A stretch of 52,679 bases of DNA from Nitrospirota bacterium (lineage in GTDB: Bacteria; Nitrospirota; Nitrospiria; Nitrospirales; UBA8639): NCBI GenBank assembly GCA_029865515.1, contig JAOUGQ010000001.1:1-52679 (forward strand), read 5' to 3'. The position numbers and the translations under genes were made by a program. Under the pieces are notes generated by a model. That model had not been told where the DNA came from, ran no database searches, and worked only from the letters and a program-made list of their open reading frames with translations. This document shows, in pieces, positions 11,078 to 39,084 of the stretch. How positions within the stretch are numbered: position 1 is the stretch's first letter; each line of letters opens with the position of its first letter.

Positions 11078-12172
11078 ATGACGCACCCGACAAGTCCTGA
11101 CACACTAAGCTCCAATCCCGGACTCATCCAAAACCCTGAGTCACAACCTACACCAATCATTGATTCATTGGCCTACTGGAAGAGCGGGGCCAAAGAACTG
11201 AAATCCTTCCGTGGCCACACGCAAGAAATTTGGTCTGTGGCATTTTCCCCTGACGGGTTAACACTGGCAAGCGGAGGAACCGATCGCTTTATTCGGATTT
11301 GGGATATTGAAACCGGCCGTCTTCTTCGTTCCTTGCGTGGACACACACAGGTCATTCGGGAGATTAAGTATAGCCCGGATGGTCAGATATTAGCCTCTGC
11401 GAGTGAAGACCGGACCATTCGATTATGGAATCCTCAAACCGGCGAAAACCTTCGATTACTCTTTACCCGCTATGACCATGCTGTTTGCAGTATTTCCTTT
11501 TCCCCGGACGGCCTCATGCTTGCCAGGGCGGGACAAAACAAGGATATAAAAATTTGGGAAGTGACTACGGGCACAGAACTCATGACACTCCTTGGTAAAG
11601 ACCAATACGACCACAATTGGAGCGTCTGCACCGCATTTTCCCCTGATGGCATTCACTTGATTGCGGGCACCGACATTGGGAAAATCAAACTCTATGAGGT
11701 TCTGCCAAGTGGGGAAGAAAAAATCGTGCACAACGGCCATTGGAGAGACAATGCCGATGATGAATCGACTGAAAATCGTGGATTTTATGTAGACGACCAA
11801 GGGACATTTCAAAAACCCATGGAATATTGGATTGGAGCCTTAACCTTCACTCCAGATGGGGCCACCATGATATCCGGAAGTCGGGACTGCACGATTAAAT
11901 TCTGGGACATGCCGACACTGGAAGAGCGCCGCACACTGAAAGGTCATTCGGAATGGGTGAGAAATCTTCTTGTCACACAGGACGGCCAGGTCCTCATCAG
12001 CGCGAGCGATGATGGAACAGTCAAAATGTGGGACATTCAAAGTGGCCGTCAATTCCGAACACTTCGATCACACAAAGGGCCGGTCAGGGGAATTGCCCTT
12101 TCATCGGATGGGAAATACCTCGCTACAGCCGGAAATGACCGCATCATTACCCTCTGGGAGGGCGGAGAGTAA
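11078..12172 (+). CDS. WD40-repeat protein
   Basis: About 7 repeats of GH...V..VAFSPDG..LASGS.D.TI.LWD; GAGG SD. Confidence 0.92.
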   Translation: MTHPTSPDTLSSNPGLIQNPESQPTPIIDSLAYWKSGAKELKSFRGHTQEIWSVAFSPDGLTLASGGTDRFIRIWDIETGRLLRSLRGHTQVIREIKYSPDGQILASASEDRTIRLWNPQTGENLRLLFTRYDHAVCSISFSPDGLMLARAGQNKDIKIWEVTTGTELMTLLGKDQYDHNWSVCTAFSPDGIHLIAGTDIGKIKLYEVLPSGEEKIVHNGHWRDNADDESTENRGFYVDDQGTFQKPMEYWIGALTFTPDGATMISGSRDCTIKFWDMPTLEERRTLKGHSEWVRNLLVTQDGQVLISASDDGTVKMWDIQSGRQFRTLRSHKGPVRGIALSSDGKYLATAGNDRIITLWEGGE

Positions 12173-12221
12173 TCCATTTGCACCTTACTAGTTCTTACTA
12201 GCTATCTCAGGGCAGCCCTTA

Positions 12222-24821: not shown

Positions 24822-24853
24822 AAAAAAAAAGGGGGTGGTTGCCCACCCCCTTT
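24822..24853 (-). terminator. Intrinsic terminator after the cytochrome c operon
   Basis: GGGGGUGG-GCAA-CCACCCCC followed by U9. Confidence 0.88.
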
Positions 24854-24888: not shown

Positions 24889-26763
24889 TTATAAGGATTT
24901 GCCTTTGCGCCGATTGGCACGACGGGTCAAGATCCACCCTTCCACGATGACCAACCCAATGGCCGCCACTGTAGGATAGATATACGTTTCTTTAGGAATT
25001 GGTGGTTCCAACACAAGGTAATAAAATGCAGAGACCGCCATCTTTCGTCCCACATCCCCATTGTGTCCATCCCAGGCAAAGAAATTGATGGGAATATATT
25101 TACCCAGCTCAATGTACGTATCTTCTTCATAATCACCCTTAAGCGGGCGAGTAATGATCACCGTCCATCGGCCATTTTGCCACTCAGCCTTCACCACTTT
25201 CAGCTGTTCCGTGAAATCATCACGGTCCTCAAAGTCCATATCCCAACCCGTGCCTTGATAAGCCTTCAGGTTGCCATCGGCCGTCCACTTTGTGATATCA
25301 ACGGGGAAAGACTCATCTCCCCAGAAATAACGTGGCTTCCGTGGGGCTGGTAATTCCTGCCATTTTATGGGGAATTGGAAAGCAATCCCGTCATTAAACA
25401 CTTGATAAGACGTTTGCTTAGCAGCAATCGAGTCCGGGTGAGTCGGATCATCATCGAATTTTGAACCTCCTGGTGGCTGCTCTTCTATTCCATAATCTCC
25501 AAGATTAACTTCATAGGGTTCCCAGTCAACACTGTCTTTTTGCACACTCTTGGTACGATCATCCCAGCGGAACATGAACGCAATATGGGTTTCATTATAA
25601 AGGGATTGAACCCAGACATCGTCAATCCGGTTAACAAAGTTGCGCGGCTTATGGGTAATTTGCCCACCCATGGCGACGATCCGGCGTTCGATAAGATTCC
25701 ATCGTGGGTCATGTTCATCAGCCGGGAGTTCCCCCTCAACAAACTTTGAAGGAACCACGAAATTGATCTTTGGTTTATCTGTTAAAGGATCAATTCCCCT
25801 TGGCTTGGCTTCCAGTAAAGATTTCGCGATCTCATCGGTCACGTTTCCACCGGCAATATCAACGTCCTTATCCCGTTCACACAGATGATTCACGTAATTG
25901 GCAATATGCCAGCGATCTTCAACTGTGGTGTTGTCGGCAAATGATGGCATCGGAGTTCCACTTACTCCTGTGGAGAAAGTTCTAAAAATATTTTTAACAT
26001 TGTAGGCATCCTGACGACTGCCCCTGAAATTCCAGCATTTGTGCCAGTCCGCCGGTTGAATGGAAAAACCCCAGTCATCCTTAAGGTTAAAAGCATTCCC
26101 ATCTCCTCGACCTTCCAGGCCGTGGCACTCAATACATTTCATTTCTTTTACCAACTCTGAACCACGCTTAACCGATTCCGCCGAAGGGGGAACCGGTTGA
26201 ATTTTTTCAAGTTGCAAAACATGAAATTCTTCAAATTCCGTATCCTGCCAACTACGATCCTTGACCAATTCTGTCGTCACAAAAGCCAAGACATCCTTGC
26301 GTTGCTCTTCGGTCAAAATACCTTCCCAGGAAGGCATAGCGGAACCTGGCAAGCCATGAGTCACGGTTTGGAACAGGTCCACATCAATAAGCGGTAATTC
26401 CCCGCTGGCTGTATGACGGATTTTAAACGTCCCCGCATTGAAATTACGCGGGCGAGGCCACAAACGGTCTGCTCCCGGTCCATCCCCTGATCCGTTCACA
26501 CCATGGCACCAGACACATTTTGTAAAATATACCCGCTTTCCTGCTTCAACCTGTTCAGCAGATGGTGGAGCCGGGCGACTTCCTTCGGCAAACCCTTCTG
26601 CCATCTCAGCTTGGGAAGTGGTAGCCACACCCATTCCACCAATCAAGAGGCTTAAACTGAGGAGCCAGGCGCCGAGCCCATGCCTACCGTATTCGGCCGG
26701 TTTCTTTTCGTTCATAACCATCCTCTTTTCAAAATTTCCAGTATCAGATTGAATTTCATGCAT
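24889..26763 (-). CDS. Diheme cytochrome c fused to an EbdC/NxrC-like domain with a C-terminal membrane anchor
   Basis: Signal peptide (..SQA-E), CVWCH, CIECH, PRNF, GSAMP/GTPMP, then FRWDD, DGIAFQFP, WTVIITRPL, FFAWDG....GRK and a C-terminal TM; GGGAGG SD before ATG 26763. Confidence 0.85.
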   Translation of the reverse strand: MHEIQSDTGNFEKRMVMNEKKPAEYGRHGLGAWLLSLSLLIGGMGVATTSQAEMAEGFAEGSRPAPPSAEQVEAGKRVYFTKCVWCHGVNGSGDGPGADRLWPRPRNFNAGTFKIRHTASGELPLIDVDLFQTVTHGLPGSAMPSWEGILTEEQRKDVLAFVTTELVKDRSWQDTEFEEFHVLQLEKIQPVPPSAESVKRGSELVKEMKCIECHGLEGRGDGNAFNLKDDWGFSIQPADWHKCWNFRGSRQDAYNVKNIFRTFSTGVSGTPMPSFADNTTVEDRWHIANYVNHLCERDKDVDIAGGNVTDEIAKSLLEAKPRGIDPLTDKPKINFVVPSKFVEGELPADEHDPRWNLIERRIVAMGGQITHKPRNFVNRIDDVWVQSLYNETHIAFMFRWDDRTKSVQKDSVDWEPYEVNLGDYGIEEQPPGGSKFDDDPTHPDSIAAKQTSYQVFNDGIAFQFPIKWQELPAPRKPRYFWGDESFPVDITKWTADGNLKAYQGTGWDMDFEDRDDFTEQLKVVKAEWQNGRWTVIITRPLKGDYEEDTYIELGKYIPINFFAWDGHNGDVGRKMAVSAFYYLVLEPPIPKETYIYPTVAAIGLVIVEGWILTRRANRRKGKSL

Positions 26764-26776
26764 ATCCGCGTCCTCC

Positions 26777-27745
26777 CTATTCCCAGGTCCGCGGGTAATA
26801 CCCGGTGTGCCAGTATTCAAACATGATGACTTTCCAAATTTCATCTACCGATAAATGCTGTTCCCAGGGAGGCATGACCGACGCCCAGGGGAAACCTTCT
26901 CCAGGGAGCCCGATTCCCCCTTTAGCTACCCGCCAGAACACGAATGTTTCCTGTAGCTGAGCAATAGTTCCCGCATCTGTAAAATTTGCAGGAATGGGAT
27001 TGAAGGCAAAGGCCCAGAGGCCACGGCCATTTAAATTATCCCCATGACAGAAGTGGCAATTTTGAAAAAATATCTCTCCACCTTCCCGTACATGCTTGAT
27101 ATAACCCTTGGCATTTGGATCCCAGGGATTATCTTCCGCGCTTTTCACATCTTTCATTAAACGACCCATAGATTGGTCCACAATATGAGCATTGCTATAG
27201 GCCTGATCATATTTTCCCTCGGGATTAATCCGGTAAGGGTTAGCAGCGGTCTGCAATACATAGGTTTTGCCGTGAACTTTCGTGGTTGCTGGTGGGGCAG
27301 GATGCACCGTCCGCAATTCAATCGGTTCATCAAAACTTGGCAGGAATGAATTGTAGGCGAATCCCCATAGACCGATCGGCAATAGGATCAACAGGGCCAT
27401 TCGCAAGGCCTTAGTGAATCCCGTCTTAGCATCCAACACGTTAATGATGGGGCGCTTGAATTCTTCCCACTCCGGCTGAGAACCTGAGACCCACATAAAA
27501 ATACCGCAAGCCGAGACAGTGCCATAAATGGCCCGCACGCTAAATGGAATGGGTGGATAAATTCGATACTTCAGATAGAACAAATTAACAAACGCCCAGA
27601 CAAAAATACCGGCCCAAAATTTCGGCAAACCCATTCCCGCCTTTTTGAGCGAGTAATTAATAATGGAGAAGACCAATATGCAGATGGCCAATTCGGATAT
27701 CATCTGCATCGGCATGTAGCCTTCGACTAGTTTTAGCCACGTCAT
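26777..27745 (-). CDS. Membrane-bound monoheme cytochrome c
   Basis: 3-4 N-terminal TMs, CHFCH, PANFTD, distal SVMP. Confidence 0.85.
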   Translation of the reverse strand: MTWLKLVEGYMPMQMISELAICILVFSIINYSLKKAGMGLPKFWAGIFVWAFVNLFYLKYRIYPPIPFSVRAIYGTVSACGIFMWVSGSQPEWEEFKRPIINVLDAKTGFTKALRMALLILLPIGLWGFAYNSFLPSFDEPIELRTVHPAPPATTKVHGKTYVLQTAANPYRINPEGKYDQAYSNAHIVDQSMGRLMKDVKSAEDNPWDPNAKGYIKHVREGGEIFFQNCHFCHGDNLNGRGLWAFAFNPIPANFTDAGTIAQLQETFVFWRVAKGGIGLPGEGFPWASVMPPWEQHLSVDEIWKVIMFEYWHTGYYPRTWE

Positions 27746-27792
27746 TCTTCTTTACTCCTTATAAAGGGTTAACCCTTAATTTTTGATTTTCC

Positions 27793-29106
27793 TTATTCTT
27801 TTGGAGGTAAAGGCTGGCCTTCTTTTAATTGCGCCAGGTAGTCCACGATTTTATTCAGGGCCCCTCCGGTCAATCTTACGCCAAAATCTTTTGGCATTTG
27901 ATTATCCGGGAAGTCCTTTACCACATATGCACTTGGATTTAAAATCGATTCCGTGATGTATTCCTTTGGCGATTTAGCTTTACCCTTATAATTTGGATCT
28001 TTTATGCGCTCCGGAGCATTCGATCCCTCCATGAGGAGTGGCCCAACTTTTCCAGTAGCCCCTTCAATCCCAGGGATAGTATGACAGGCGGGACATCCGG
28101 CCTTCATAAAGAGCTTATCATGTGGCTCGCTCCCGTCCGCCAAAATATTTCCCCCTGCACCGCCCTTCTCTTCTTCTCCACCTTCAGCCGGACGATCTGC
28201 TTCCGGAATAAACTTTTCATAGGAAGCCACTATTTCATCATATGTTGGGGCTTCCTTACCTTCCCTTGTATACATCCAGGTATCCACAGCAGCCAATTCA
28301 CCCAATGTCAATGATATTGGTGGTTTATGAATTTTAGGCATGGGGCTTACCGTATCGTTCGAACCCTTAACGCCAAACCCTGGCACCACATAACAACTTG
28401 GGCATGAATGTGATTCAGCGATATATTCTTGGCCGTTTGTGGCAGTCCCAGAACCTGCAAATGCTTCCTTTTGCTCAGAGGGACGGGCTGCTGCATCATT
28501 CATATGATAATTCGGCTCCTTCAATCGCTCTGGCGACCTGTCAGGAATGCCATAGAGATTCGGCGCCCGTTCACTTAAAAACCCTTGCTGGAATCCATGG
28601 CATAACGGGCATTGCCCCTTCCCAATGGCTCCCTGAGTTTTACTTTGCCCAATTCCTCCGAAAATAATTTTTTCTCCCTCATCACCTAACTGCTGGGCTG
28701 ACATACTTTGAAAATCCAACTTCACGACTGGAGGGGGAAATCCTCCCTCAACCTGCGGCAACCAATTTCCATATCCGGAAAGTGCGGCTGCCACAAAAAA
28801 CATGAACCCCCCAATCTTCATGAGGGCGCTAATGTTCGGGAAATAGAGCCCCATAATGAAAGACATTACGGTGATCATCACCAGAGAAACCGGCAGCAAT
28901 CGGCTTTCCCCATGAAAATTATGGGCGTAATTTGAAATAGCCATAAACGCTAAGAACGCACAAAGAATTCCGATTAATGTCTGAAAACTCGCACGTTTCT
29001 TTTTTACCGGATCAGAAATAGAGGCTTGAAAATACAATAATAGCCCAACCAGCATTAGCAATACCGGCCATCCCATTCCTATTGCCCGTCCCATTAACTC
29101 AACCAC
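27793..29106 (-). CDS. Membrane-bound diheme cytochrome c
   Basis: 4 N-terminal TMs, CPLCH and CPACH in two homologous domains, an extra HSCPSC; GTG start with GGAGG SD. Confidence 0.85.
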   Translation of the reverse strand: MVELMGRAIGMGWPVLLMLVGLLLYFQASISDPVKKKRASFQTLIGILCAFLAFMAISNYAHNFHGESRLLPVSLVMITVMSFIMGLYFPNISALMKIGGFMFFVAAALSGYGNWLPQVEGGFPPPVVKLDFQSMSAQQLGDEGEKIIFGGIGQSKTQGAIGKGQCPLCHGFQQGFLSERAPNLYGIPDRSPERLKEPNYHMNDAAARPSEQKEAFAGSGTATNGQEYIAESHSCPSCYVVPGFGVKGSNDTVSPMPKIHKPPISLTLGELAAVDTWMYTREGKEAPTYDEIVASYEKFIPEADRPAEGGEEEKGGAGGNILADGSEPHDKLFMKAGCPACHTIPGIEGATGKVGPLLMEGSNAPERIKDPNYKGKAKSPKEYITESILNPSAYVVKDFPDNQMPKDFGVRLTGGALNKIVDYLAQLKEGQPLPPKE

Positions 29107-29125
29107 AGTTCAATCCTCCACATGA

Positions 29126-29146
29126 GGGGCTGCCCACCGCAGCCCC
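29126..29146 (-). other. Intercistronic GC-rich hairpin without a U-tract
   Basis: GGGGCTGC-N5-GCAGCCCC between the cydA-like stop and the SD of the cytochrome c gene; likely an mRNA-stability element. Confidence 0.55.
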
Positions 29147-29173
29147 ATGATTGTTTGTAATTGTCTTCCTAGT

Positions 29174-31141
29174 TTAATGACCAGTTGCAGGCTGAGGAGA
29201 CGGAACTGGCTGCCCTGCTGTTGATGGAACCGGCACTTTCTTGGCGCCAAGGGTTCCCAACCAAAACACAAACATAATGCTTATCCAGAAAAACAGTACG
29301 TTAAAAGAAATGACGTTTGCCGCGAATCCAATTGTGTGGGTATACGCCCAGGGTGAATTATCCCGCATGACCTCGTTTACATGCCAGAACAACCTCACTG
29401 AAGACCTGATATAACCCATTAAACCCATCATCCACGTGAATGCTGTTGCCAACATAATTAATGCATATTGTGAACGAGGGGCAATTTTACCCCATTGAAT
29501 TGGTCCTAGCGGTCTCGCCCCTTTTAACATTGCTAAATTTAGCGGAGTCATCAAAAGAAGGCAGGACAAGGTGCCTGCCACCTGCGGAACCGATAATCCG
29601 ATACGGACATTCGCTGGGATGAAATACCCGTAGCAGGCCAACCAGATATTATTTAATTGGCCTATGACAAAGAAACATCCCATAAAAATATTCCCGAATT
29701 TTGCCCAACTAACGGTTGGCACCCGATTCCCGCGCTGGTACCAAATAAAGCTTAAAATAGTTGTCATAATAATGGCGTTAATGCCGCCATTCTTGGCCGA
29801 CATCACACCATAATTCCCCAAAACCGGGTGCTGCTGACCACCCATGGCTTTCAATTCAGCTGGGGTCATCACAATGGTATGCGGGGTAATAAAAACCAAC
29901 AAACCGCAAACCAAAATGAACACCAAATATTTTATGTATTTTTGGAATCTCTCCCCACCCGTCATTCGCCCAAGGGCTTGCCACAGGTAGTAATTTGTGG
30001 TCAGGAATAGAATCCCAATCATTGTGGCCTGAATAATAAATAACCACGCCAACAGACCACCCATCAATGTAATCCCCATCTGCTGTCTGTACGCGTATAC
30101 CTCACGCATGAGCCAATATCCCGCAAATGGAAGGGGAATCAGAAATGCCACACCCAGACTCATGGCGATGTAGCCCATCCAGTCATAGTGGGCCCGCTCT
30201 TCGTCCGTTTTTGAGGAAAGGAATCGGTATGCGGCATAAGCAGCCACCACACCACCACCGAAAGCCATATTTCCCAAAATTCTGTGGACATTCAATGGAT
30301 TCCAAAGCGCCGTATGCAACACATGCCAGATATTTCCGAGATATCGTCCTTGCTCATCTACACCGGCTGGCGACATCATAAAGCCGATCCATGAATTAGC
30401 GAGAAACATCAGGACAGTCCCAATCACATTGAGGATTACGGACATACTGAGATGGACCCACTTCATGACCCCTTCCCTCATTTTGTCCCATCCATAATAA
30501 TAGATGTAGAGCGTTCCACTCTCCGCCACGAACATAAGAGCATAAATATGCATGACGGGACGGAAAATACCGGAGAGATAACCGAAGAATGCGGGGTAGA
30601 GTGTCAGAAAGGTGAAAATGAGAATTCCACCCAAAATGGCCGTAAGTGAATACGCGGTCAAACTAATCTTGATAAAGTCGTAAGCCAATTGATCATATTT
30701 TTTGGCCATCGCTTTATCCTTGCTGACCATCCCGGCGAACTCAATACACATGCAGAAGATTGGCACGGCCAACACGAAACTCCCATAGTACAAATGCTGC
30801 TGATTAGCCACCCAAAGGAGGACACGACTTTCGAAGTTGTACCGAGGATAAAAAGTTTCGTTGTCGGCCGTTATGGGTGCTGGCATTCCAATGGCAGGCC
30901 CTTCAGTCTTGTAATAGACATCACGACCCATTTCAACTTTTTTCTCCTCACCCTCTGCTCCCTCCTTTTGTGCGGCAACCACGTCAGCAGGAGGTCCACC
31001 GGCTGGAGCCCCTCCCCCACTCGCCACAGCCGTCACAGACAGGAATATGGGCAGCAAAAGCAGCCCACCCATCACCATCAAGGCCATTGCGGCAAACAAC
31101 TTTTTCTTCCCCCGGGTCATTTGAATGAACAGGCGACCCAT
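29174..31141 (-). CDS. Cytochrome bd-like oxidase subunit I, copy 1 (Nitrospirota OR-N type; no Q-loop motif recognised, no cydB)
   Basis: CydA-like segments QQHLYYG (His19 equivalent), AESGTLYIYYYGW (Glu107 equivalent), LANSW..FMMSP, NVHRILG (His186 equivalent), GYIRSSVRLFW (GRQPW equivalent); many TMs; AGGAGG SD. Confidence 0.8.
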   Translation of the reverse strand: MGRLFIQMTRGKKKLFAAMALMVMGGLLLLPIFLSVTAVASGGGAPAGGPPADVVAAQKEGAEGEEKKVEMGRDVYYKTEGPAIGMPAPITADNETFYPRYNFESRVLLWVANQQHLYYGSFVLAVPIFCMCIEFAGMVSKDKAMAKKYDQLAYDFIKISLTAYSLTAILGGILIFTFLTLYPAFFGYLSGIFRPVMHIYALMFVAESGTLYIYYYGWDKMREGVMKWVHLSMSVILNVIGTVLMFLANSWIGFMMSPAGVDEQGRYLGNIWHVLHTALWNPLNVHRILGNMAFGGGVVAAYAAYRFLSSKTDEERAHYDWMGYIAMSLGVAFLIPLPFAGYWLMREVYAYRQQMGITLMGGLLAWLFIIQATMIGILFLTTNYYLWQALGRMTGGERFQKYIKYLVFILVCGLLVFITPHTIVMTPAELKAMGGQQHPVLGNYGVMSAKNGGINAIIMTTILSFIWYQRGNRVPTVSWAKFGNIFMGCFFVIGQLNNIWLACYGYFIPANVRIGLSVPQVAGTLSCLLLMTPLNLAMLKGARPLGPIQWGKIAPRSQYALIMLATAFTWMMGLMGYIRSSVRLFWHVNEVMRDNSPWAYTHTIGFAANVISFNVLFFWISIMFVFWLGTLGAKKVPVPSTAGQPVPSPQPATGH

Positions 31142-31230
31142 TGACCTACCTCCTTTGAAAACGTGTTGTGTTTATAACCATTAATTTTCCATTAAAATCG
31201 TCGAACAAAAATTCATCAACCTTTAACCTC

Positions 31231-31347
31231 TTAACGGAACATATAGAAATAATCGAGGCCCTGGGCATCCATTAAGATATAATCCAATGTTTGGAAATAC
31301 ACAAAACAGATAACTAGTGAAACTATGACATACAGAATCGTCTGCAT
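31231..31347 (-). CDS. 38-aa single-TM microprotein
   Basis: MQTILYVIVSLVICFVYFQTLDYILMDAQGLDYFYMFR with a strong AAGGAGGAG SD; the track's 67-aa start is too far upstream. Confidence 0.75.
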   Translation of the reverse strand: MQTILYVIVSLVICFVYFQTLDYILMDAQGLDYFYMFR

Positions 31348-31408
31348 GCGCTCCTCCTTGGGTCTAAAAGTATTAAATAAAAGATTGTCTTTTTGGAAGT
31401 CATGCCAA

Positions 31409-31543
31409 TCAGCAGGGGCACTGAATGCCCGCAAACCAATAGAAAAACCACATACTCACTGCGCAGGTCAGATAAAATATGGCTTTGCCTATTTTGACCT
31501 CTAATTCCGTTGACTCTCGCACGACCGTCGTCGAATCAGCCAT
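31409..31543 (-). CDS. 44-aa single-TM microprotein ending in Cys-Pro-Cys (not in the ORF track)
   Basis: MADSTTVVRESTELEVKIGKAIFYLTCAVSMWFFYWFAGIQCPC*, SD GGAGGGAGG. Confidence 0.75.
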   Translation of the reverse strand: MADSTTVVRESTELEVKIGKAIFYLTCAVSMWFFYWFAGIQCPC

Positions 31544-31670
31544 CTCAAACCCTCCCTCCGCTTAATCCTTAGTTTAATTTAGATAATTTACCCTAATTAA
31601 CTTTATTGACAGAATCTATTTTTTCGTGGTATTCAGACGTTCATTGATTATGTAAAAAGAGGGATTTCTC

Positions 31671-31775
31671 ATGCGTACAAATGCAAAAGTGTTCGACATT
31701 ATAGTTTTGGCCGGAATGGTTGTCAATATTCTCTTGGCGGTCTTTCTCATCCTCTACTATTTTGATTTTCTTTAA
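31671..31775 (+). CDS. 34-aa hydrophobic microprotein, divergently oriented (not in the ORF track)
   Basis: MRTNAKVFDIIVLAGMVVNILLAVFLILYYFDFL*, SD AGAGGG; TTGACA at 31606 with a weak extended -10 (TGG-TATTCA); AAAAAATC-TCG-GATTTTTT hairpin at 31798..31816 downstream. Confidence 0.6.
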   Translation: MRTNAKVFDIIVLAGMVVNILLAVFLILYYFDFL

Positions 31776-31819
31776 TTTTTGCCTCTGCATTTCCCACAAA
31801 AAATCTCGGATTTTTTGGC

Positions 31820-32695
31820 TTAATTTGAACGGGCACACCTAAAACCAATTGTCTCATCCCGAAAGTCCGGCACCATAAAACTTCTATTGGTGATTCGAAG
31901 ATCAACACCCTGGCTCGTATACCCGCTGCCCCTCATCGTTTTATATGTTGAGGGGGGATGATCACTCGCCTTCGAAATTGTTTTTTCTTGACTGTACAGA
32001 TCCTCAACATACCAATCATCCGTCCATTCCATGACGTTACCCGCACCGTCATATACACCAAACACACTTTGGTCAAGTTGAAATGATCCAACAGGAGCTG
32101 TCACCAAAAAACCGTCAGCCTCTCCCGCGAAATTGGCCGGATGGCCTGCCAGGCCCTCTCCCCACGGCCAGGTGCGCCCATCCGTCCCTCGCATGGCTTT
32201 TTCCCATTCTTTTTCGGTAGGAAGACGCTTGCCATTCCATCGACAATATTCATTCGCATCGCTCCATGACACATAGGTGACCGGCTGATGAAGCCCTCGT
32301 AGCGCTTCGAGTTTCCTGGCATACCGAGAGGGCGGGCCAGGCTGACGATGCCCGGTTGCCTCAACAAATTCCATATACTGCTGGTAGGTGACTTCATACC
32401 GATCGATCCAATACGTCCCTAGATAAGCCGCATGAGCGGGCTTTTCATTGAATCCACCTTGATCGCTACCAAGAATAAATTCCCCTGCAGGAACTTCAAC
32501 CATCTCTTCCCTGATCCCAGGCCCTTGCGACTCGCTGTTTCTTGACGGCTCCAATAATGAGGAAGGAGGCAGTGCTTGAGGTTTTTCCTCCGGAAGAGTC
32601 GGGGGCGGGTCGGTTCCTCTCAAAATTCCCAACACCGGCAGGCCGGTCATGAACAAGACCGCAACCAGAAAAATCAGTTTAAAGCGACTTTCCAT
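31820..32695 (-). CDS. Membrane-anchored FGE-sulfatase-fold (SUMF1/NirV/PvdO-like) protein
   Basis: MVEVPAGEFILG, IDRYEVT, PVTYVSW.DA.EYC.W.GKRLPTE.EWEKA, GNVMEW, GFRCA. Confidence 0.9.
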   Translation of the reverse strand: MESRFKLIFLVAVLFMTGLPVLGILRGTDPPPTLPEEKPQALPPSSLLEPSRNSESQGPGIREEMVEVPAGEFILGSDQGGFNEKPAHAAYLGTYWIDRYEVTYQQYMEFVEATGHRQPGPPSRYARKLEALRGLHQPVTYVSWSDANEYCRWNGKRLPTEKEWEKAMRGTDGRTWPWGEGLAGHPANFAGEADGFLVTAPVGSFQLDQSVFGVYDGAGNVMEWTDDWYVEDLYSQEKTISKASDHPPSTYKTMRGSGYTSQGVDLRITNRSFMVPDFRDETIGFRCARSN

Positions 32696-32775
32696 GTTTC
32701 CTATCTCTGAACCTTCATTCCTTCCTATACGGAGAAAGCATGGGCGCTCTCACTGGCAAGGCGTCTGGTTATCGC

Positions 32776-33693
32776 CTACGAGGACTGAGGAATCTCAGCC
32801 GGAGGATCCTTTGCGCACCGGAAGCCGACGCTCGCATCGGTCCTCCACATCTTCGCTGAAAAACGCTTGGTGACCCTGGCACCTAGACGAGACTCCCGCC
32901 ATGACCCTCCACGAATAACTTTATACACATCATCGTCTTTCGGACCAGGGGGATCACGATACGGCGCTTGTTGATAGTATTCAGCGGAATAATTATCCAT
33001 GACCCACTCAGCCACATTGCCGGTTGCATCATATAACCCGAACGGACTTCTCCCCACTTCAAATGATCCCACGGGGGCTAAATACCGAAAGCCATCTTCC
33101 TCCCCGTCTACATTGGCAAATTGATAGTCAAACTTATCACCCCAAGGATACCGCCGCTTCCCTTCTCCACGTGCAGATTTTTCCCACTCTGCTTCGGTAG
33201 GCAACCGCTTGCCCGCCCACCGACAATACCCAAACGCATCATTCCACGTCACCGCAATAACCGGATAATCCTGACCGACTAACTTGGCAACATCATCTTC
33301 AAAGACCGGAACTTTAGGCCTATCCCGTTTCGTCATGCTGAGATAACGCTCATAGTCCGCCTGTGTCACTTCTTTGAGATCGATGTAAAAGGTTTTGAGG
33401 TACACCGGATGCGGAGGCCCCTCATCGGGGTCCCCATCTCCAATCCCCATCGTAAATGGCCCTTCAGGAATTTCCACCATTTTCCGATTATCATCGCCGA
33501 TCAGTGTTTTATACATAGAAAAATCCTGCGTGGGCATCGGCTGCAGCACACGGACTTTTGCAGGTTGGCCAGCCGATAAGGCTTCCAACTCTTTTTTCCC
33601 TTTATAGGTCTCATACAACAGCATCACGATCATCATAATAAACGAGCCGAAGACAAACAGAATGGCTCCAATCAAGACACCTCGATTTTCCAT
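32776..33693 (-). CDS. Membrane-anchored FGE-sulfatase-fold protein (paralog)
   Basis: N-terminal TM; GKRLPTEAEWEK, GNVAEW, RGGSW, GFRCA. Confidence 0.9.
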   Translation of the reverse strand: MENRGVLIGAILFVFGSFIMMIVMLLYETYKGKKELEALSAGQPAKVRVLQPMPTQDFSMYKTLIGDDNRKMVEIPEGPFTMGIGDGDPDEGPPHPVYLKTFYIDLKEVTQADYERYLSMTKRDRPKVPVFEDDVAKLVGQDYPVIAVTWNDAFGYCRWAGKRLPTEAEWEKSARGEGKRRYPWGDKFDYQFANVDGEEDGFRYLAPVGSFEVGRSPFGLYDATGNVAEWVMDNYSAEYYQQAPYRDPPGPKDDDVYKVIRGGSWRESRLGARVTKRFSAKMWRTDASVGFRCAKDPPAEIPQSS

Positions 33694-33743
33694 GCCTACC
33701 TTATCCCTCGCTTCGATCCATCCATCACCATGCTCCAGATTGA

Positions 33744-34118
33744 TTACGCCCGAGAGTTGTTGCCAGGGGCTTCCACCGCCGGTTCAGAAGGAGGCTGCTT
33801 CCGTTGTTGCCACGTTTCCAAGAGCATTGAAATCCAAATTCCCAAGAATCCACCCATCGCGGCACCAGACGCGGCACCAACGGTCACCGCCTCAGTTCCA
33901 CCCAACCCCAAGGCCAACAATCCGCCCAAGATGGTGCCGATAAAAATGCTCAAAAAAAACCCTCGTCCGCCTAAAAAACCTACCCCCGCACCCAGAAGCG
34001 TTCCTAAAGCCAAGGTGACAGGAAGCCACCCCTCTCCCATAAACACCCCGATCAGAAAGCCCACGGTGCCTAATCCTAGGATGCCCAAGATGACATCAAA
34101 AACTTTTGATGTGGTCAC
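33744..34118 (-). CDS. Small Gly-rich membrane protein (glycine-zipper-like)
   Basis: About 4 hydrophobic helices with GxxxG repeats; GAGGAG SD. Confidence 0.7.
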   Translation of the reverse strand: MTTSKVFDVILGILGLGTVGFLIGVFMGEGWLPVTLALGTLLGAGVGFLGGRGFFLSIFIGTILGGLLALGLGGTEAVTVGAASGAAMGGFLGIWISMLLETWQQRKQPPSEPAVEAPGNNSRA

Positions 34119-34154
34119 AATGACTCCTCATCAACGACCCGATTGAACACGGAA

Positions 34155-34859
34155 TCATTCAGCCTGAACCTGAAGGGAACCAAAATCGACTTCCACACCT
34201 GGCCCTCCTAATAAAGATATGCCCCAGGCTTGGGCCGCCGGCTCATGGTCATGAATCTTAAGAAAATCCTCATACACGTTGACACGCTCTTCCACCCACT
34301 CTCCGAGGGGCTGCGTCCCACTGCGAATAACAATTTCGGTTGAGCTAAACATGCCGCCCTCTTTGACCGACCCCACCGGTAGCGTCGCGCTCCACACGTA
34401 TTTGGTATTCACGGGAATAAACATCAGATCCACATCTAACGAAGGATAAATTGCAGCAATAAAATCAGCACTATCGGGAACGGTCTTTATCCGCCAACGC
34501 CAAATCAAGACAGGGTGCTTCTTCGGATCCCACTGAATATTCTTGGTATAGACCCGTTGGTTGGCGCTCTTGGCGGACAAAAAAGCAATCCCTTCCTCCT
34601 TATGAATCGTGTAGGTTTCATGGGCTGTGACCGTGCTCCGTTGCGCCTCCCATCCCTGAGGAAATCCTTTTTCATCAGGATGCTCAAAATTTTCCAAAAC
34701 CATCAGGCCATCTGATGGACCCCGGCCCGGCACATCTTGCGCAGAAACAGGACGACTCCCAATCATGAAGATGCCCAGTAGCAGACATGCCGAAAATGTT
34801 GCCAGGCTGTTTGGCCAGGCACCCGCTACTCTATTTTGTTGTCTACGATACAATGCCAT
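34155..34859 (-). CDS. Exported DUF3047-like protein
   Basis: Signal peptide, then P.L.WRWRI, KYVWS, W..ERVNVYEDF; the ATG overlaps the cydA-like stop (TAATG). Confidence 0.7.
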   Translation of the reverse strand: MALYRRQQNRVAGAWPNSLATFSACLLLGIFMIGSRPVSAQDVPGRGPSDGLMVLENFEHPDEKGFPQGWEAQRSTVTAHETYTIHKEEGIAFLSAKSANQRVYTKNIQWDPKKHPVLIWRWRIKTVPDSADFIAAIYPSLDVDLMFIPVNTKYVWSATLPVGSVKEGGMFSSTEIVIRSGTQPLGEWVEERVNVYEDFLKIHDHEPAAQAWGISLLGGPGVEVDFGSLQVQAE

Positions 34860-36730
34860 TACGTTGATTCCTCTTCTGAAAGCACCTGAACCACCGGAGA
34901 AGGCCGCGCCAATCCAGCCGTTCGCCTCTCCACCACTCGTTGATCCCATCGGCTGAGCCAAAATACGAAAAAGACCGATAACCAGAATACGATCATATTA
35001 ACGGTGACCATCTTCGCAGCAAATCCCAATGAAGGGGTAAATGCCCACGAGGAACGATCCGGCATTAATTCAGAGATATGCCATTCCAATCGACCAGCAG
35101 ATCGAATATACCCCATCAACCCCATCACCCATGAAAACGCGGCAGCCACGACAAACAACGCGACTATCCCGCGCGGAGTAATTCGTCCCCACTGAACAGG
35201 CCCGGTCATTTCAGCGCCTCGCAACAACAACCGATTGAGCAATAAGCCCCCCACGACCACGGTAGCTGTCGTCATCCCTTGAGGGGTAGAAAGCCCGACT
35301 CGCACATTCGCCGGTATATAGAATCCATAAATAGCCAACCACACAATATTGGCAATGCCCATGAAAAACAATAACAGGAGTAATGCATTCCCCGCTGATG
35401 CCCACTGTACGGTCACCACCCGATTGGCACGCCGATACAAAATATAGCTCAGAGCAGTCAAACAGATCATCACGTTAATCGCGCCGTTCTTGGCGGACAT
35501 CACACCGAATTGACCAATGACCGGATGTTGCGCAGCACCCATGGCTTTCATCTCACTGGCACTCATGGCAATGGTGTGCGGCGTAAACCACACGAGAAAA
35601 CAGACCATCAAGGCAAATAGGATGGCTTTAAAATACGGATGATAGCGTTCGCCTCCTTGAAGACGGGCCAAGGATTGCCAGATGTAATAATTAATTCCTA
35701 AAAACAACACCCCGACCATAATGGCTTGGAGCACAAACAGCCACGACAACATCCCTCCCATCATCGTAATGCCCATATGCTGTCTGAACTCAAACACCGC
35801 CCGCATCAGCCAATATCCGGCAAGTGGCATGGGGAGAAGCGCACAGACCATGACCACAATAAACACATGCCCTACCCAATCATAATACGCCCGGTCTTCT
35901 GAAGTTTTTGCCATGAAAAACCGGTACGCTGCATAGGCGACAACCACGGCTCCACCCGACATAATATCTGCCAAAAAGCGATGAGCGTTCAGTGGATTCC
36001 ACAAAGGAGAGTGCAGAAGATGCCACACATTGCCTAAAAAATGGCCTTGGGCATCGACCCCAGACGGGGCCATCATAAAAGAAGCCCATGAATTGGCTAA
36101 CAACAACAAAATCACTCCGGTTCCGTTTGAAAGAATACCAAGCGTCATATGCACCCACTTCGTCGCCGGGGTTTTCAGGAAATTCCAGGTGTAATAATAA
36201 AGCGTCAACAGAAAGGCTTCACTCACAAACACCGTGGCATACACCGGCATCACCGGCTTAAAGGTCGCCCCCATATAGCTCATAAACCCAGGATATAGAG
36301 TGACAAAGGTCACAAGCATGAGAGAGCCTAACAAGGCCGTAATGGACATCGACAACAACGCCACACGTAAAATATCACGGGCCAACCCGTCGAACTTCTG
36401 TTGGGAAGCCTGATGCTTGCGCGTGAATCCCAAAAACTCCAGTAAAAGACTAAACAAGGGAAGGGCTAACACAAAACCGCCAAAATAAGTATGTTGCTGG
36501 GTCACAAACCAGACGATCAGCCGGTTATTCACAAGAGGGTAGGAAGAGTAGGTCTGAATAATTTCTACCGCAGCTGGACCCTCAATAGACCCCTGAGTTT
36601 GGTAGAAAATATCCTGAGTTGGCTGTCCATCATTTGACGGTAAGGACTTGGGATCCGCGCCCAACGCCATTCCCGTCTGCAGCAGAAAGACGACCAGAAA
36701 GCCCAATAATGGCTTTACAATTTGTATCAA
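34859..36730 (-). CDS. Cytochrome bd-like oxidase subunit I, copy 2
   Basis: Colinear paralog of 29174..31141 (QQHTYFG, LANSWASFMMAP, LWNPLNAHR, YYDWVG, GYWLMR, QHPVIGQFGVMSAKNG, MGYIRSAGRLEW); TTG start 1 nt after the upstream stop. Confidence 0.8.
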   Translation of the reverse strand: MIQIVKPLLGFLVVFLLQTGMALGADPKSLPSNDGQPTQDIFYQTQGSIEGPAAVEIIQTYSSYPLVNNRLIVWFVTQQHTYFGGFVLALPLFSLLLEFLGFTRKHQASQQKFDGLARDILRVALLSMSITALLGSLMLVTFVTLYPGFMSYMGATFKPVMPVYATVFVSEAFLLTLYYYTWNFLKTPATKWVHMTLGILSNGTGVILLLLANSWASFMMAPSGVDAQGHFLGNVWHLLHSPLWNPLNAHRFLADIMSGGAVVVAYAAYRFFMAKTSEDRAYYDWVGHVFIVVMVCALLPMPLAGYWLMRAVFEFRQHMGITMMGGMLSWLFVLQAIMVGVLFLGINYYIWQSLARLQGGERYHPYFKAILFALMVCFLVWFTPHTIAMSASEMKAMGAAQHPVIGQFGVMSAKNGAINVMICLTALSYILYRRANRVVTVQWASAGNALLLLLFFMGIANIVWLAIYGFYIPANVRVGLSTPQGMTTATVVVGGLLLNRLLLRGAEMTGPVQWGRITPRGIVALFVVAAAFSWVMGLMGYIRSAGRLEWHISELMPDRSSWAFTPSLGFAAKMVTVNMIVFWLSVFFVFWLSRWDQRVVERRTAGLARPSPVVQVLSEEEST

Positions 36731-36731
36731 G

Positions 36732-37805
36732 TTAATTCACCAAATTGCCATGCCCGATTTTAGCATCAGCAAGGGAAGGAAGAGACTCGGCGGCCTTTGA
36801 TTTTTGAAGAATCCCCATCACAAAGGGACAGCTTTGTAAGGATTCAGGAATCGTTACCAGACGTTCTTCATAGGATTTTCGCCAGCCCAGAAAGAGAGTA
36901 TATACAGTCAACAACAGCGCGGTGCAGGCCGCCATCGCGACAAACCCCAACTGAGACACTTCCTCGACCCGGAACACAAAGGCGGTCATCCCCATGAGCA
37001 CAAGAAAATAGGTGGCAGAAAAGGTCAAACTGGGCCACACCCAAAACCAAAGAGATGACAGCCAGGTTTTTGGCCTACGTTCTTTTTGATCTTGAGCATA
37101 GAGCGTTTCCCCAGCGAAAAACGCCATCAACCCGATGGAAGCGACAATAACCGGGACGAGTAATGATTGAACCATGGGCTGAAGTTCGATGGACCCTATA
37201 CGGAACAGAAGCCACGATCCGACTATCCCCATGATGGTGGCCAATGCTCCCCATTTCAAAACCGCGCCTATCTCCAGGGGAATCCATTTTCTTAATGCCT
37301 CTCCATCAGGAAATGTTGGCACCACAACGCCTTGATGCATCAATCGTTGCACATGACCGATTTCAAAGGCATCCCGAGTCACGGATGTACATGAAATAAT
37401 AATCGCCATCATGGCCGGACCTTCAGGGTGGAGTAAAAAATCGTACCCCACAAATACTTGAAGAATCGCCAGAACCAGGAGAGATAATTGAATACTATAG
37501 ACCAGGCCGATCCATCCCACCAACCACACCCATCGCTGAGTACCATCCTGACGCAAGGATTCCTGAAGCGTGCCCCCCCGGCCTTGCCGATAGGCCCAGA
37601 TTGCCGCAAGCATAGAAATGCACCCACTAAAACCAAGTAGCACCAAAGGCTCCGAAAGCGGCAAGACCTGCTTAAGAAGACGGTAAATCCCAAAAGCCAC
37701 CAGACCGGGAACCAGCATAACCAACCGTTTTCGTTTACGGACAGGTGGATCCGTCACTAAGGCATTCAACTGTGGAAGGACACGTAGGGAAAGTCGATGC
37801 AACAT
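36732..37805 (-). CDS. Polytopic membrane protein of unknown function (about 8 TM)
   Basis: Hydrophobic segments, TRDAFEIGH, C-terminal SCPF; translationally coupled to cydA-like copy 2. Confidence 0.75.
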   Translation of the reverse strand: MLHRLSLRVLPQLNALVTDPPVRKRKRLVMLVPGLVAFGIYRLLKQVLPLSEPLVLLGFSGCISMLAAIWAYRQGRGGTLQESLRQDGTQRWVWLVGWIGLVYSIQLSLLVLAILQVFVGYDFLLHPEGPAMMAIIISCTSVTRDAFEIGHVQRLMHQGVVVPTFPDGEALRKWIPLEIGAVLKWGALATIMGIVGSWLLFRIGSIELQPMVQSLLVPVIVASIGLMAFFAGETLYAQDQKERRPKTWLSSLWFWVWPSLTFSATYFLVLMGMTAFVFRVEEVSQLGFVAMAACTALLLTVYTLFLGWRKSYEERLVTIPESLQSCPFVMGILQKSKAAESLPSLADAKIGHGNLVN

Positions 37806-37871
37806 ACCGTTATTCGCTTCGAAGGGTTTTCCGGATTTCGACTTTTCTGGTGAATGCGTTACAAGGCAGCC

Positions 37872-38387
37872 TCATGAGCGCCCTGCCGCCATTCCAAAAT
37901 ATCGGGTTTTGACTTCTTCCATCAGTGCAACTGTCACTTCGGACATACCCCGATCCAACGCGGTCCGCTCCAACTCAGTCTTGGCCATCGCCCGGATTCC
38001 AGACGGCACATTACCCAAACGACGCTCCGCGTCTGGACTCCACTCCACAATACCCTTATTGCGGGCGACACCCACACGTGAAAACGTCAGAACCCGTTGT
38101 CGCTGCGCGTTGGCAAAGGTCTCGACTTCATCACGAACCAAAGGGGCCAAGTACGGGGGAAGCCGGTTTAATTGATACAAGGCCTCATCGGTCCAAACCA
38201 TTCCAGGAACCAGGAGATCCAATTCTTTAACATCCCCTTCTACCCCAACTGAAAAACTACAGTGATTGCAATGAAATTTCACAAACACAGAATCGGCAGG
38301 GAACTCCTCAATCTCTGTTACCTGCAAGGGATATTGGCAACCACATTGCACGATCGGCTCACCCAATTTTTCCCGGATAGAGGACAT
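37872..38387 (-). CDS. Protein with a Cys knuckle and tandem PCP_red (BchB/ChlB C-terminal-like) domains
   Basis: CGC...CNHC, then two repeats WTDEA...L..LP......VR..VE.FA and WSPDAERRLGNVP...R......E..A. Confidence 0.7.
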   Translation of the reverse strand: MSSIREKLGEPIVQCGCQYPLQVTEIEEFPADSVFVKFHCNHCSFSVGVEGDVKELDLLVPGMVWTDEALYQLNRLPPYLAPLVRDEVETFANAQRQRVLTFSRVGVARNKGIVEWSPDAERRLGNVPSGIRAMAKTELERTALDRGMSEVTVALMEEVKTRYFGMAAGRS

Positions 38388-39084
38388 ACAGCATCGTATA
38401 GGTAAACGTTCCGGTCATAAACAATACACAATAGATCACCATGGTGAATTTTCCGAGTACCCGATGCCGTCTAGCCCCATTAGGCCAAATCCGTTGAATA
38501 GAGATTTCAATTCCAAACACCATCGCAATGAGAATGATAAGGCCAAGATACACACTGAATTTCCCCATGGAAAATCCAGACGCCATCACCCGTGACCCGA
38601 AGAACAAAAGGACGACAGTCGTCACACCTCCAAGGATCGTGGCAATGCGTCGTCCGGATGTCTGCAAAATCGCTTCCTTCAAGACCCGCTGACCTTCCAC
38701 GAAGGCCTGCGACCGAAACCCCAGCACCATCATATAAATGGCCATAATCAGGCCGATCACCACCAGAAGAATATGTAAGGTCAACACAGGGACAAATACT
38801 TTATCGTATAGCCATTGAGGCCCGCCAAACCCTTCCTTCCCTTCAAAAGCCAAAACACCCAGATTGCGGAAAAGATAATAACTGACAAAGAAGGTGAGCA
38901 TGGCGATCATCCCACCGAACATCAACCAATGGTGATGATCGGCTTTGTGGTTTCTGGCCTGAATCCATCCGACGATAAACAACCCCGTAAAGAGTGTCGC
39001 CATCAGTTGACTTACGTCGGCTCCGATCGTCGCATGGGTCCCGAAAAATCCCGGTTCCCTCAGCCATACTGCGATATCATCCAT
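38359..39084 (-). CDS. DUF420-family membrane protein
   Basis: HHWLM, F.VSY, F.G....Y...L.LHI.L, RRHRVLG..T..I.....TG...Y.MLY. Confidence 0.8.
   Translation of the reverse strand: MDDIAVWLREPGFFGTHATIGADVSQLMATLFTGLFIVGWIQARNHKADHHHWLMFGGMIAMLTFFVSYYLFRNLGVLAFEGKEGFGGPQWLYDKVFVPVLTLHILLVVIGLIMAIYMMVLGFRSQAFVEGQRVLKEAILQTSGRRIATILGGVTTVVLLFFGSRVMASGFSMGKFSVYLGLIILIAMVFGIEISIQRIWPNGARRHRVLGKFTMVIYCVLFMTGTFTYTMLYVLYPGKIG

What the first reader, a model, noticed from the sequence alone, without database searches (positions are those of the whole stretch)
24889..39084. Candidate cytochrome-c-fed bd-type terminal oxidase made of two CydA paralogs, three cytochromes c and microproteins, without CydB
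Seen: two full-length, colinear CydA-like genes that keep the His19, His186 and Glu107 equivalents and a conserved GVMSAK Met. Both replace the E-x-GRQPW motif with GYIRS(S/A)xR, carry signal-peptide-like N-termini, and lack a recognisable Q-loop motif; no cydB is present. Copy 1 is co-transcribed with 5 heme-c sites and an NxrC-like domain. Known: Nitrospira have bd-like proteins of unproven function, and CydAA' heterodimers exist in archaea. Inference: the paralogs form a CydA/CydA' heterodimer that takes electrons from nitrite through cytochromes c rather than quinol, possibly as a supercomplex with NXR. To my knowledge this is biochemically uncharacterised.
Basis: partly seen in the sequence, partly recalled or inferred. 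Interest (0 to 1): 0.8.

Follow-up and report, generated by a model that had tools for sequence, protein, structure and literature searches.

The report
Known Nitrospirales bd-like respiratory gene cluster
This is a further copy of an already described, biochemically untested respiratory gene cluster of nitrite-oxidising bacteria, in which one cytochrome bd-like membrane protein likely works with its own three cytochromes c and tiny membrane proteins, likely to reduce oxygen, and likely not as a pair with the second bd-like gene nearby.

Summary
The genes are real and as described. They match, by gene order, the published Nitrospira cluster bd-like_3 + two cytochromes c + alt_NxrC_2 with bd-like_4 nearby (PMC6606698), of the OR-N family (bioRxiv 2021.01.16.426971). 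This scan met it before on other DNA. The copy 1/copy 2 heterodimer is not supported: copy 1 has its own conserved promoter; the copy 2 counterpart is transcribed about 10-fold lower in N. moscoviensis; 15 of 18 other Nitrospirota and 20 of 26 genomes of other groups have only one such gene; natural fusions join it to the next cytochrome c. CydB is not the partner (0 of 12 same-family genomes have it). Added here: three conserved microproteins, one predicted to bind copy 1 (0.72, best control 0.00); Glu99, Glu445 and probably Met393 are replaced; a four-helix insertion carries invariant His/His/Met; the module also lies beside iodate-reductase-like and lactonase-type N2O-reductase genes. Most likely a single-CydA, cytochrome-c-fed oxygen reductase (0.5); a cytochrome c-quinone conduit is the main rival (0.3).

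The parts
31698..31726 (-). Perfect sigma-70-type promoter (TTGACA-17-TATAAT) pointing into the copy 1 operon; lies antisense inside microprotein 3
   Evidence: Only 12/12 site of 19 promoter-like sites (20 expected by chance); both hexamers intact in the window and 10 of 10 Nitrospirales loci, absent in 2 of 2 sister-family loci
31671..31775 (+). Microprotein 3 (34 aa, one predicted membrane helix)
   Evidence: 85-97% identical in 10 of 10 Nitrospirales loci; differences by codon position 13/0/73, 68 synonymous vs 10 non-synonymous codons; co-oriented first gene of the operon in other lineages. Part of its conservation may come from the overlapping promoter
31409..31543 (-). Microprotein 1 (44 aa, one predicted membrane helix, C-terminal Cys-x-Cys here, His-rich or absent tail elsewhere)
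   Evidence: Strong RBS; 10 of 10 Nitrospirales loci; codon positions 29/11/140; motif upstream of 38 of 53 module genes
31231..31347 (-). Microprotein 2 (38 aa, one membrane helix, D-x3-M-x2-QGL motif); predicted subunit
   Evidence: Motif upstream of 49 of 53 module genes; predicted complex with copy 1 scores 0.72 vs best control 0.00; no match in NCBIfam
29174..31141 (-). bd-like copy 1 (counterpart of bd-like_3; OR-N family, likely OR-N2): signal-like N-terminus plus 13 long helices
   Evidence: PF01654; AlphaFold2 pLDDT 94.7; CydA fold Z 35.5, rmsd 3.4, 351 aligned; 80-93% identical to Nitrospirales orthologs
27793..29106 (-). Dihaem cytochrome c with four N-terminal hydrophobic helices; likely direct partner of copy 1
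   Evidence: CxxCH at 166 and 338; homologs fused to the C-terminus of bd-like proteins in P0122, P0141
26777..27745 (-). Membrane-anchored monohaem cytochrome c
   Evidence: CxxCH at 230; Pfam cytochrome c; fused to the next gene in many Proteobacteria
24889..26844 (-). alt_NxrC_2 counterpart: dihaem cytochrome c + EB_dh (NxrC-like) domain + C-terminal anchor; true start probably Met28 (26763) or later
   Evidence: the Met/Lys haem b ligand positions of NxrC/EbdC are Trp508/Met602 here
24828..24853 (-). Intrinsic-terminator-like hairpin closing the copy 1 operon
   Evidence: 11-pair stem and T run, top of 30 sites (19 expected by chance)
34859..36730 (-). bd-like copy 2 (counterpart of bd-like_4); sister clade of copy 1, faster evolving, lacks the Glu347 equivalent
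   Evidence: (mean identity among orthologs 0.71 vs 0.89 for copy 1)
31820..34961 (-). Genes after copy 2: DUF3047, a 124-aa membrane protein, two FGE-sulfatase-like proteins
   Evidence: same order in 10 of 10 Nitrospirales loci
36732..39084 (-). Genes before copy 2: DUF420, a protein with two PCP_red domains, a 357-aa membrane protein
   Evidence: same order in 10 of 10 Nitrospirales loci

Best explanation
Copy 1 is likely the single CydA-type core of a membrane complex with the three downstream cytochromes c and two or three one-helix microproteins, which likely takes electrons from periplasmic haem carriers (here likely from nitrite oxidoreductase) and likely reduces oxygen without using quinol. 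Shown: the genes, their order, the five haem c motifs, loss of the Q-loop, the conserved promoter and the single-gene modules elsewhere. Predicted: the CydA fold, a four-helix insertion between CydA helices 7 and 8, and docking of microprotein 2 on that insertion. Inferred: electrons run NXR or a soluble cytochrome, then the NxrC-like/dihaem protein, the monohaem and dihaem cytochromes, then haems held by His286 and His116 (with His587, Met360, His421, His438 and Met447 as candidate further ligands); the hydrophobic helices of the dihaem cytochrome would cover the face that CydB covers in ordinary bd oxidases. Copy 2 would be a low-level, separately regulated isoform rather than a stoichiometric partner.
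For: Single core: 15 of 18 non-Nitrospirales Nitrospirota with a hit have exactly one; 20 of 26 chosen genomes of other groups have one; G133 (98% complete) has the copy 1 module as its only PF01654 member; 9 of the 12 loci with two copies carry two whole modules, each with its own cytochromes; fusions to the next cytochrome; Kuenenia kustd1712-1709 lists one cydA followed by dihaem, monohaem, dihaem genes (PMC6423088 passages); transcript levels 2645, 3243, 2602, 4743 RPKM for the four module genes vs 262 for bd-like_4. Microprotein 2 binding: score 0.72, best control 0.00; the mark was reached by 116 of 157 solved complexes and 2 of 215 mismatched pairs (counts hold only roughly, own alignments); runs agree in 100% of contacts, partner pLDDT at least 85. 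Oxygen: 0 of 12 same-family genomes have a haem-copper oxidase or CydB, so some bd-like paralog should be the oxidase in these aerobes; copy 1 shares all listed candidate ligands with the C169-type paralog that is the published complex IV candidate; it is the most transcribed of the four in N. moscoviensis and TO_1 is the most expressed in Manganitrophus; His19, Glu107, His126 equivalents kept in 89-92 of 92 sequences.
Against: Glu99 is Tyr (91 of 92), Glu445 is gone and the Met393 position is probably Gln371, so the bd three-haem site is not intact. The same module is in the NXR cluster of anaerobic anammox bacteria. In 14 of 80 loci it directly precedes an iodate-reductase-like cluster and in 5 it lies by a lactonase-type N2O reductase, in genomes that all hold PF00115 members (18 of 18; the family includes NO reductases). 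Mundinger et al. and Luecker et al. favour reverse electron flow for this very cluster. A homodimer of copy 1 was not tested. No solved structure or assay of any OR-N member was found.
Confidence: 0.5

Rival explanations
1. Same single-core complex, but it is a cytochrome c-quinone oxidoreductase (alternative-complex-III-like conduit): it would carry nitrite-derived electrons uphill to quinone in nitrite oxidisers and anammox, and quinol electrons out to periplasmic reductases (iodate, N2O) in Proteobacteria.
For: Proposed for this cluster in PMC3578206 and PMC6606698 (passages); present in anammox; 85-1313 nt upstream of, and co-oriented with, peroxidase-peroxidase-Rieske-AioA-like genes in 14 of 80 loci, and the idr cluster was reported to lack its own quinone oxidoreductase (PMC8692401 passages); next-best fold matches are alternative complex III chains (Z 23.0, rmsd 3.6, 323 aligned) and polysulfide reductase C (Z 15.7); loss of Glu99/Glu445.
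Against: No quinone site identified; the ACIII likeness is shared by the whole CydA fold and is far weaker than the CydA match; ligand set is the same as in the C169-type complex IV candidate; the genome already has a Rieske/cytochrome b pair on C118; an O2 or peroxide scavenger would also make sense beside idr genes.
Confidence: 0.3
2. The complex reduces another small acceptor (NO, H2O2 or a reactive N/halogen intermediate) with cytochrome c electrons, as a detoxifying partner of periplasmic molybdo- and copper enzymes.
For: Changed distal residues (Tyr for Glu99) and extra invariant His/His/Met on the periplasmic side; neighbours that make or handle reactive intermediates.
Against: No positive test; very high transcription under plain nitrite oxidation (rank 37) fits a main respiratory role better; would leave the oxidase role to the two less transcribed paralogs.
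Confidence: 0.1
3. One reading: copy 1 and copy 2 form a CydA/CydA' heterodimeric oxidase.
For: Both genes are kept 3.7 kb apart in 10 of 10 Nitrospirales loci; both keep His19; most other CydA duplications are thought to co-assemble; copy 2 has no cytochrome genes of its own and evolves faster, as a second subunit might.
Against: Own promoter for copy 1; about 10-fold lower transcript for the copy 2 counterpart (one condition, mRNA only); single-gene modules dominate elsewhere; no a/b complementarity; Murali et al. name OR-N1/N2 as the possible exception to co-assembly; published CydAA' proposals pair the NIDE0901-like protein with an OR-N1 protein, not these two.
Confidence: 0.07
4. A CydB encoded elsewhere completes either copy.
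For: The assembly holds a cydB fragment on C300 and no canonical cydA was found.
Against: The fragment is cut at the contig end where its own cydA would lie; 27 of 42 genomes that carry bd-like genes, including 12 of 12 of the same family, have no CydB.
Confidence: 0.02

Closest known systems
Nitrospira moscoviensis bd-like_3 / two cytochromes c / alt_NxrC_2 with bd-like_4 (NITMOv2_3640-3650; Mundinger et al. 2019, PMC6606698)
   Same: Same gene order, gene sizes and neighbours (FGE, DUF3047, O-methyltransferase); the paper already states that the gene is duplicated a few genes away in all Nitrospira genomes and that the cluster may anchor NXR.
   Different: Matched by synteny and size, not by direct sequence comparison. 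The paper favours reverse electron flow and does not list the microproteins (no rows for 3644/3645 in its Table 1 supplement).
OR-N family of the cytochrome bd superfamily, likely subfamily OR-N2 (Murali, Gennis, Hemp; bioRxiv 10.1101/2021.01.16.426971); TO_1 of Ca. Manganitrophaceae (bioRxiv 10.1101/2021.11.15.468770)
   Same: No quinol site, 14 helices counting the N-terminal one, His19 kept, six residues between the Glu99 and Glu107 positions, often alone in its operon; TO_1 = bd-like protein + two cytochromes c + periplasmic cytochrome b.
   Different: Subfamily not checked with the authors' HMMs (supplements not available). Insertion mapped here between CydA helices 7 and 8 rather than in place of the Q-loop as written in PMC3578206.
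Anammox NXR cluster kustd1709-1712 (Kuenenia) and the Nitrospina gracilis cluster
   Same: One cydA-like gene followed by dihaem, monohaem and dihaem genes (PMC3578206).
   Different: Anaerobic host; a single bd-like gene listed in the cluster; no anammox sequence was compared here.
Archaeal CydAA' (qOR4a/4b) of Caldivirga maquilingensis
   Same: CydB-less bd-type enzyme; His19 kept in both chains.
   Different: A two-gene operon with quinol oxidase activity; chain a has the quinol site and proton channel, chain b does not. Here neither copy has a quinol site and both have the same channel residues.
Canonical CydAB quinol oxidase (E. coli bd-I, bd-II)
   Same: Nine-helix CydA fold (Z 33-35), His19, His126, His186, Glu107; small one-helix subunits are a parallel to CydX.
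   Different: No Q-loop, no CydB, Glu99/Glu445 and probably Met393 replaced, four extra helices, exported N-terminal extension, attached cytochromes c.

Membership tests
Cytochrome bd superfamily (CydA-like) | CydA fold with His19 in the first four helices | tested here: met
qOR (quinol-oxidising bd) | Q-loop with Lys252/Glu257 | tested here: not met
   motif absent; residues 100-395 align to CydA 2-417 with 285 of 296 residues, so the loop is deleted
qOR (quinol-oxidising bd) | CydB (or CydA') second subunit in the operon; Glu99, Met393, Glu445 | tested here: not met
   the Met393 mapping rests on range ends only
OR-N family | No quinol site, no CxxCH in the CydA chain, operon with alternative donors | tested here: met
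   definition
OR-N1/OR-N2 | 14 transmembrane helices | tested here: met
   13 long helices in residues 68-638 plus the N-terminal hydrophobic stretch, which may be a cleaved signal
OR-N2 versus OR-N1 | Clade assignment by the authors' HMMs or alignment | not testable with these tools
   Supplements not held. Own tree puts both copies nearer the C169 (NIDE0901-position) type than the C118 type, and PMC12342949 calls NIDE0901 OR-N2
CydAA'-type heterodimer | Two paralogs in one operon with a/b division of conserved residues | tested here: not met
CydAA'-type heterodimer | Physical association of the two chains | not testable with these tools
   two cores of about 530 residues exceed the 1000-residue limit of the complex predictor
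Terminal oxygen reductase | O2 reduction to water | not testable with these tools
   no assay; no characterised OR-N member found
NxrC/EbdC haem b subunit (for 24889-26844) | EB_dh domain with Met and Lys haem b ligands | tested here: not met
   domain present (below the TIGR03477 cut-off) but the two positions are Trp508 and Met602; His or Met in many homologs; ligand identities in EbdC are recalled
Alternative complex III / NrfD-PsrC membrane subunit | Fold and quinone site | tested here: inconclusive
   Z 15-23, below CydA matches; no quinone site test

The most novel reading that the evidence does not exclude
The OR-N2 module is a self-contained, CydB-free redox machine of one rebuilt bd core, three cytochromes and up to three unannotated microproteins, with a new metal or haem site in a four-helix insertion (His421, His438, Met447) and Tyr in place of Glu99, that many phyla plug onto different periplasmic enzymes (NXR, iodate reductase, lactonase-type N2O reductase) as their missing link to the quinone pool: a bd fold turned into an alternative complex III.
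Probability: 0.25. Interest if true: 0.75.

Novelty: already known. Interest (0 to 1): 0.33.

Why it matters
Which enzyme lets Nitrospirales breathe oxygen, and how nitrite electrons reach the quinone pool, are open since 2010. The cluster and the hypotheses are published, so the finding itself is not new. What helps: expression attempts should use one CydA-like gene with the cytochromes and the small ORFs rather than two paralogs; candidate ligands are named; and the module occurs in Proteobacteria, including a record named as a strain (L109, Aestuariirhabdus sp. LZHN29), where a knockout could separate the oxidase from the conduit model.

Tried and rejected
Solved relatives by sequence: only canonical CydA chains (1 sequence with the single query, 4 with the profile). 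Profile comparison with E. coli CydA aligned only the first five helices, so helix 7 was mapped by folding residues 100-395. A copy 1 + copy 2 or copy 1 homodimer prediction was not run (size limit; the one job went to microprotein 2). The ESM Atlas gave only unnamed small clusters below 0.9 for microprotein 2, a lead only. A weak match of the inserted helices to cbb3 subunit I (Z 6.7) is within noise and was set aside. NxrA was not found in this assembly, but an NxrB fragment at a contig edge is, so this is read as an assembly gap. My first guess that the window copies are OR-N1 and C118 is the NIDE0901 type was dropped after gene order showed C169 to hold that position. The IQ-TREE run did not finish; the tree is FastTree, 156 sequences of at least 520 aa, rooted on the C118 type, with no clade test. 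The CPSC motif in the dihaem protein is not conserved and is not a sixth haem site. Microprotein counts are by hand-made motifs and miss at least one real case (L109, seen). Searches for a complexome or structure of this complex found none; for small proteins in the cluster, none.


Full report
Observation. The minus strand carries, in reading order, DUF420, a PCP_red protein, a 357-aa membrane protein, bd-like copy 2 (34859-36730), DUF3047, a 124-aa membrane protein, two FGE-like proteins, two microproteins, bd-like copy 1 (29174-31141), a dihaem and a monohaem cytochrome c and a dihaem/EB_dh protein. The copies are 49.7% identical. Closest named homologs are from Nitrospirales. The assembly (92.6% complete) has four bd-like genes, a cydB fragment at a contig end and no haem-copper oxidase.

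What is in print. Mundinger et al. (PMC6606698; passages and two supplementary tables read) describe this cluster in N. moscoviensis as bd-like_3 with two cytochromes c and alt_NxrC_2, duplicated nearby as bd-like_4, conserved in Nitrospina and anammox, and propose an NXR anchor with reverse electron flow; they take another paralog as complex IV. Luecker et al. 2013 (PMC3578206, passages) note 14 helices, loss of quinol residues and a possible alternative-complex-III role. Murali et al. (bioRxiv 10.1101/2021.01.16.426971; outline, parts 2-4 of 6 and passages) define the OR-N family and say OR-N2 is often alone in its operon. Yu et al. (bioRxiv 10.1101/2021.11.15.468770, passages) call the four-gene unit TO_1. 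Kop et al. (PMC10839748, PMC12342949, passages; supplement searches) propose a cytochrome-c-fed CydAA' of OR-N1 with OR-N2. Passages of 10.1101/2020.07.02.185504, PMC10579370, PMC6423088, PMC8387239 and PMC8692401 were also read. Not seen: Murali's supplements, Luecker et al. 2010, Yu and Leadbetter 2020 and de Almeida et al.; these may already list the residues I call candidate ligands, since haem and copper sites were proposed for NIDE0901. Eight earlier reports of this scan found the same cluster on other DNA.

Is it a heterodimer of the two window genes? Probably not. (a) A perfect sigma-70 site at 31726-31698 points into microprotein 1 - microprotein 2 - copy 1 - three cytochromes and a hairpin ends the unit at 24853-24828 (such sites overall are no more common than chance, but this one is intact in 11 of 11 Nitrospirales sequences). 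(b) The four module genes are transcribed at 2602-4743 RPKM in N. moscoviensis, bd-like_4 at 262 (one growth condition; mapping by synteny). (c) Of 151 genomes of the phylum, 55 match; 33 of 36 other Nitrospirales with a match have four paralogs, but 15 of 18 genomes outside the order have one, within the same four-gene module in most loci fetched. Of 80 loci from all GTDB genomes (best 80 of 607 for a query centred on a distant homolog), 73 show the next cytochrome and 61 the NxrC-like gene, many of the rest being cut by contig ends; 12 hold two bd-like genes, 9 of them as two whole modules. 20 of 26 of these genomes that I searched have one gene. (d) Three database proteins of 784-889 aa fuse the bd-like chain to a C-terminal cytochrome c, two of them recognisably the next gene's product. 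(e) Copies 1 and 2 are sister clades within Nitrospiria (FastTree support 1.0) and have the same channel residues, unlike a/b pairs. For the heterodimer: fixed linkage in 10 of 10 loci and the lack of cytochrome genes beside copy 2. CydB is absent from 27 of 42 genomes tested, including 12 of 12 of this family.

Anatomy. The model of residues 68-638 (pLDDT 94.7) has 13 long helices and matches CydA (Z 35.5, rmsd 3.4, 351 aligned); CydB chains score far lower. Residues 100-395 align to E. coli CydA 2-417 over 285 of 296 residues, so the Q-loop is deleted, helix 365-390 stands for CydA helix 7, and four helices (about 396-550) are inserted before helices 8 and 9. By the range ends Met393 falls near Gln371; the GVMSAK Met447 lies in the insertion. 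Glu99 is Tyr200 and Glu445 has no acidic counterpart. In 92 sequences His116, Glu134, Tyr200, Glu207, His230, His286, Met360, His421, His438, Met447 and His587 are present in 89-92. By helix count the His/Met residues of the insertion and His587 face the periplasm (inference). No coordinates were available, so ligand geometry is untested. The C169 paralog shares this whole set; the C118 paralog lacks His421/His438.

Microproteins. Three short hydrophobic ORFs are under coding selection and travel with the module across Nitrospirota, Nitrospinota and Proteobacteria; the third is on the plus strand here and overlaps the promoter. Microprotein 2 is predicted to bind copy 1 residues 481-526, in the insertion (score 0.72, best control 0.00; mark reached by 116 of 157 solved and 2 of 215 mismatched pairs; contacts agree 100%, partner pLDDT at least 85). 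This supports binding and does not show it, and it is not on the CydB face.

Function. For oxygen reduction: this family has no haem-copper oxidase (0 of 12) and no CydB, so a bd-like protein should do it; copy 1 is the most transcribed and has the same ligands as the published candidate; in G133 the copy 1 module is the only CydA-family gene, with no PF00115, CydB or NxrA found (lifestyle unknown). Against: rebuilt haem sites, presence in anammox, and context elsewhere: 14 of 80 loci continue, within 85-1313 nt, into two peroxidase genes, a Rieske gene and an AioA-like gene, the layout used to define iodate reductase (no direct comparison with IdrA); 5 of 80 lie by a gene family whose tested member passes the lactonase-type NosZ cut-off; 18 of 18 such genomes have PF00115 members; Nitrospira-type NxrA was found in 1 of 26. 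These neighbours are kin-linked and not independent counts. I put a single-core, cytochrome-c-fed oxygen reductase at 0.5, a cytochrome c-quinone conduit at 0.3, another acceptor at 0.1, the copy 1/copy 2 heterodimer at 0.07.

Verdict. Real, conserved and biochemically unsolved, but already described; the heterodimer that made the finding look new is the weakest part. Interest 0.33, carried by the microproteins, the ligand map and the wider host range, which make the open question easier to test.

Noticed in passing
window 31671-31775 (+) and 31698-31726 (-): A 34-aa membrane microprotein gene carries, antisense within its codons, the perfect -35/-10 promoter of the divergent bd-like operon; both are conserved in 11 of 11 Nitrospirales sequences.
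   Followed up: yes
L064, L065, L067, L069, L070, L080, L082, L091, L095, L097, L100, L109, L110, L125: The module is directly followed by two dihaem peroxidase genes, a Rieske gene and an AioA-like molybdoenzyme gene (idr-like layout) in marine Gamma- and Alphaproteobacteria, each genome with one bd-like gene.
   Followed up: partly
L071, L077, L089, L107, L123: The module lies beside a lactonase-type (clade III) nitrous oxide reductase-like gene; L089's protein passes NF052460.
   Followed up: partly
27 of 80 loci, e.g. L105:13173-16615, L092:13123-16548: A UspA-UspA-PCP_red repeat protein and an AhbD/NirJ2-like radical SAM protein with a PCP_red tail (often with a HemY-like oxidase, name recalled) flank the module; the window's two-PCP_red protein (37872-38387) may be a remnant. 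Possible haem maturation system.
   Followed up: partly
L115, L124, L126, L129: A lone copy-1-like gene (extra paralog, no cytochromes) stands directly before nxrA in some Nitrospirales.
   Followed up: no
window 1-492, 6770-7729, 7838-8809, 47505-52391: Two further NxrC-like genes (the 319-aa one keeps the Met/Lys positions and matches 7b04_C at 5.8e-31), a TorD-like chaperone and a 1628-aa multicopper oxidase: the wider cluster drawn in PMC3578206.
   Followed up: partly
L006 (C169) 7186-12433 and L007 (C118) 8038-13382: The other two paralogs: C169 with its own cytochrome/EB_dh module and C118 with a cytochrome c, Rieske and cytochrome b; adjacent in 10 of 10 relatives fetched, split here at contig ends.
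   Followed up: yes
G133 (L020): A 98% complete sister-family genome whose only CydA-family gene is the copy 1 module, with no haem-copper oxidase, CydB or NxrA found.
   Followed up: partly
window 4689-6461, 9142-9756: A B12-binding radical SAM gene and a NapG-like polyferredoxin gene sit among the NxrC and chaperone genes.
   Followed up: no
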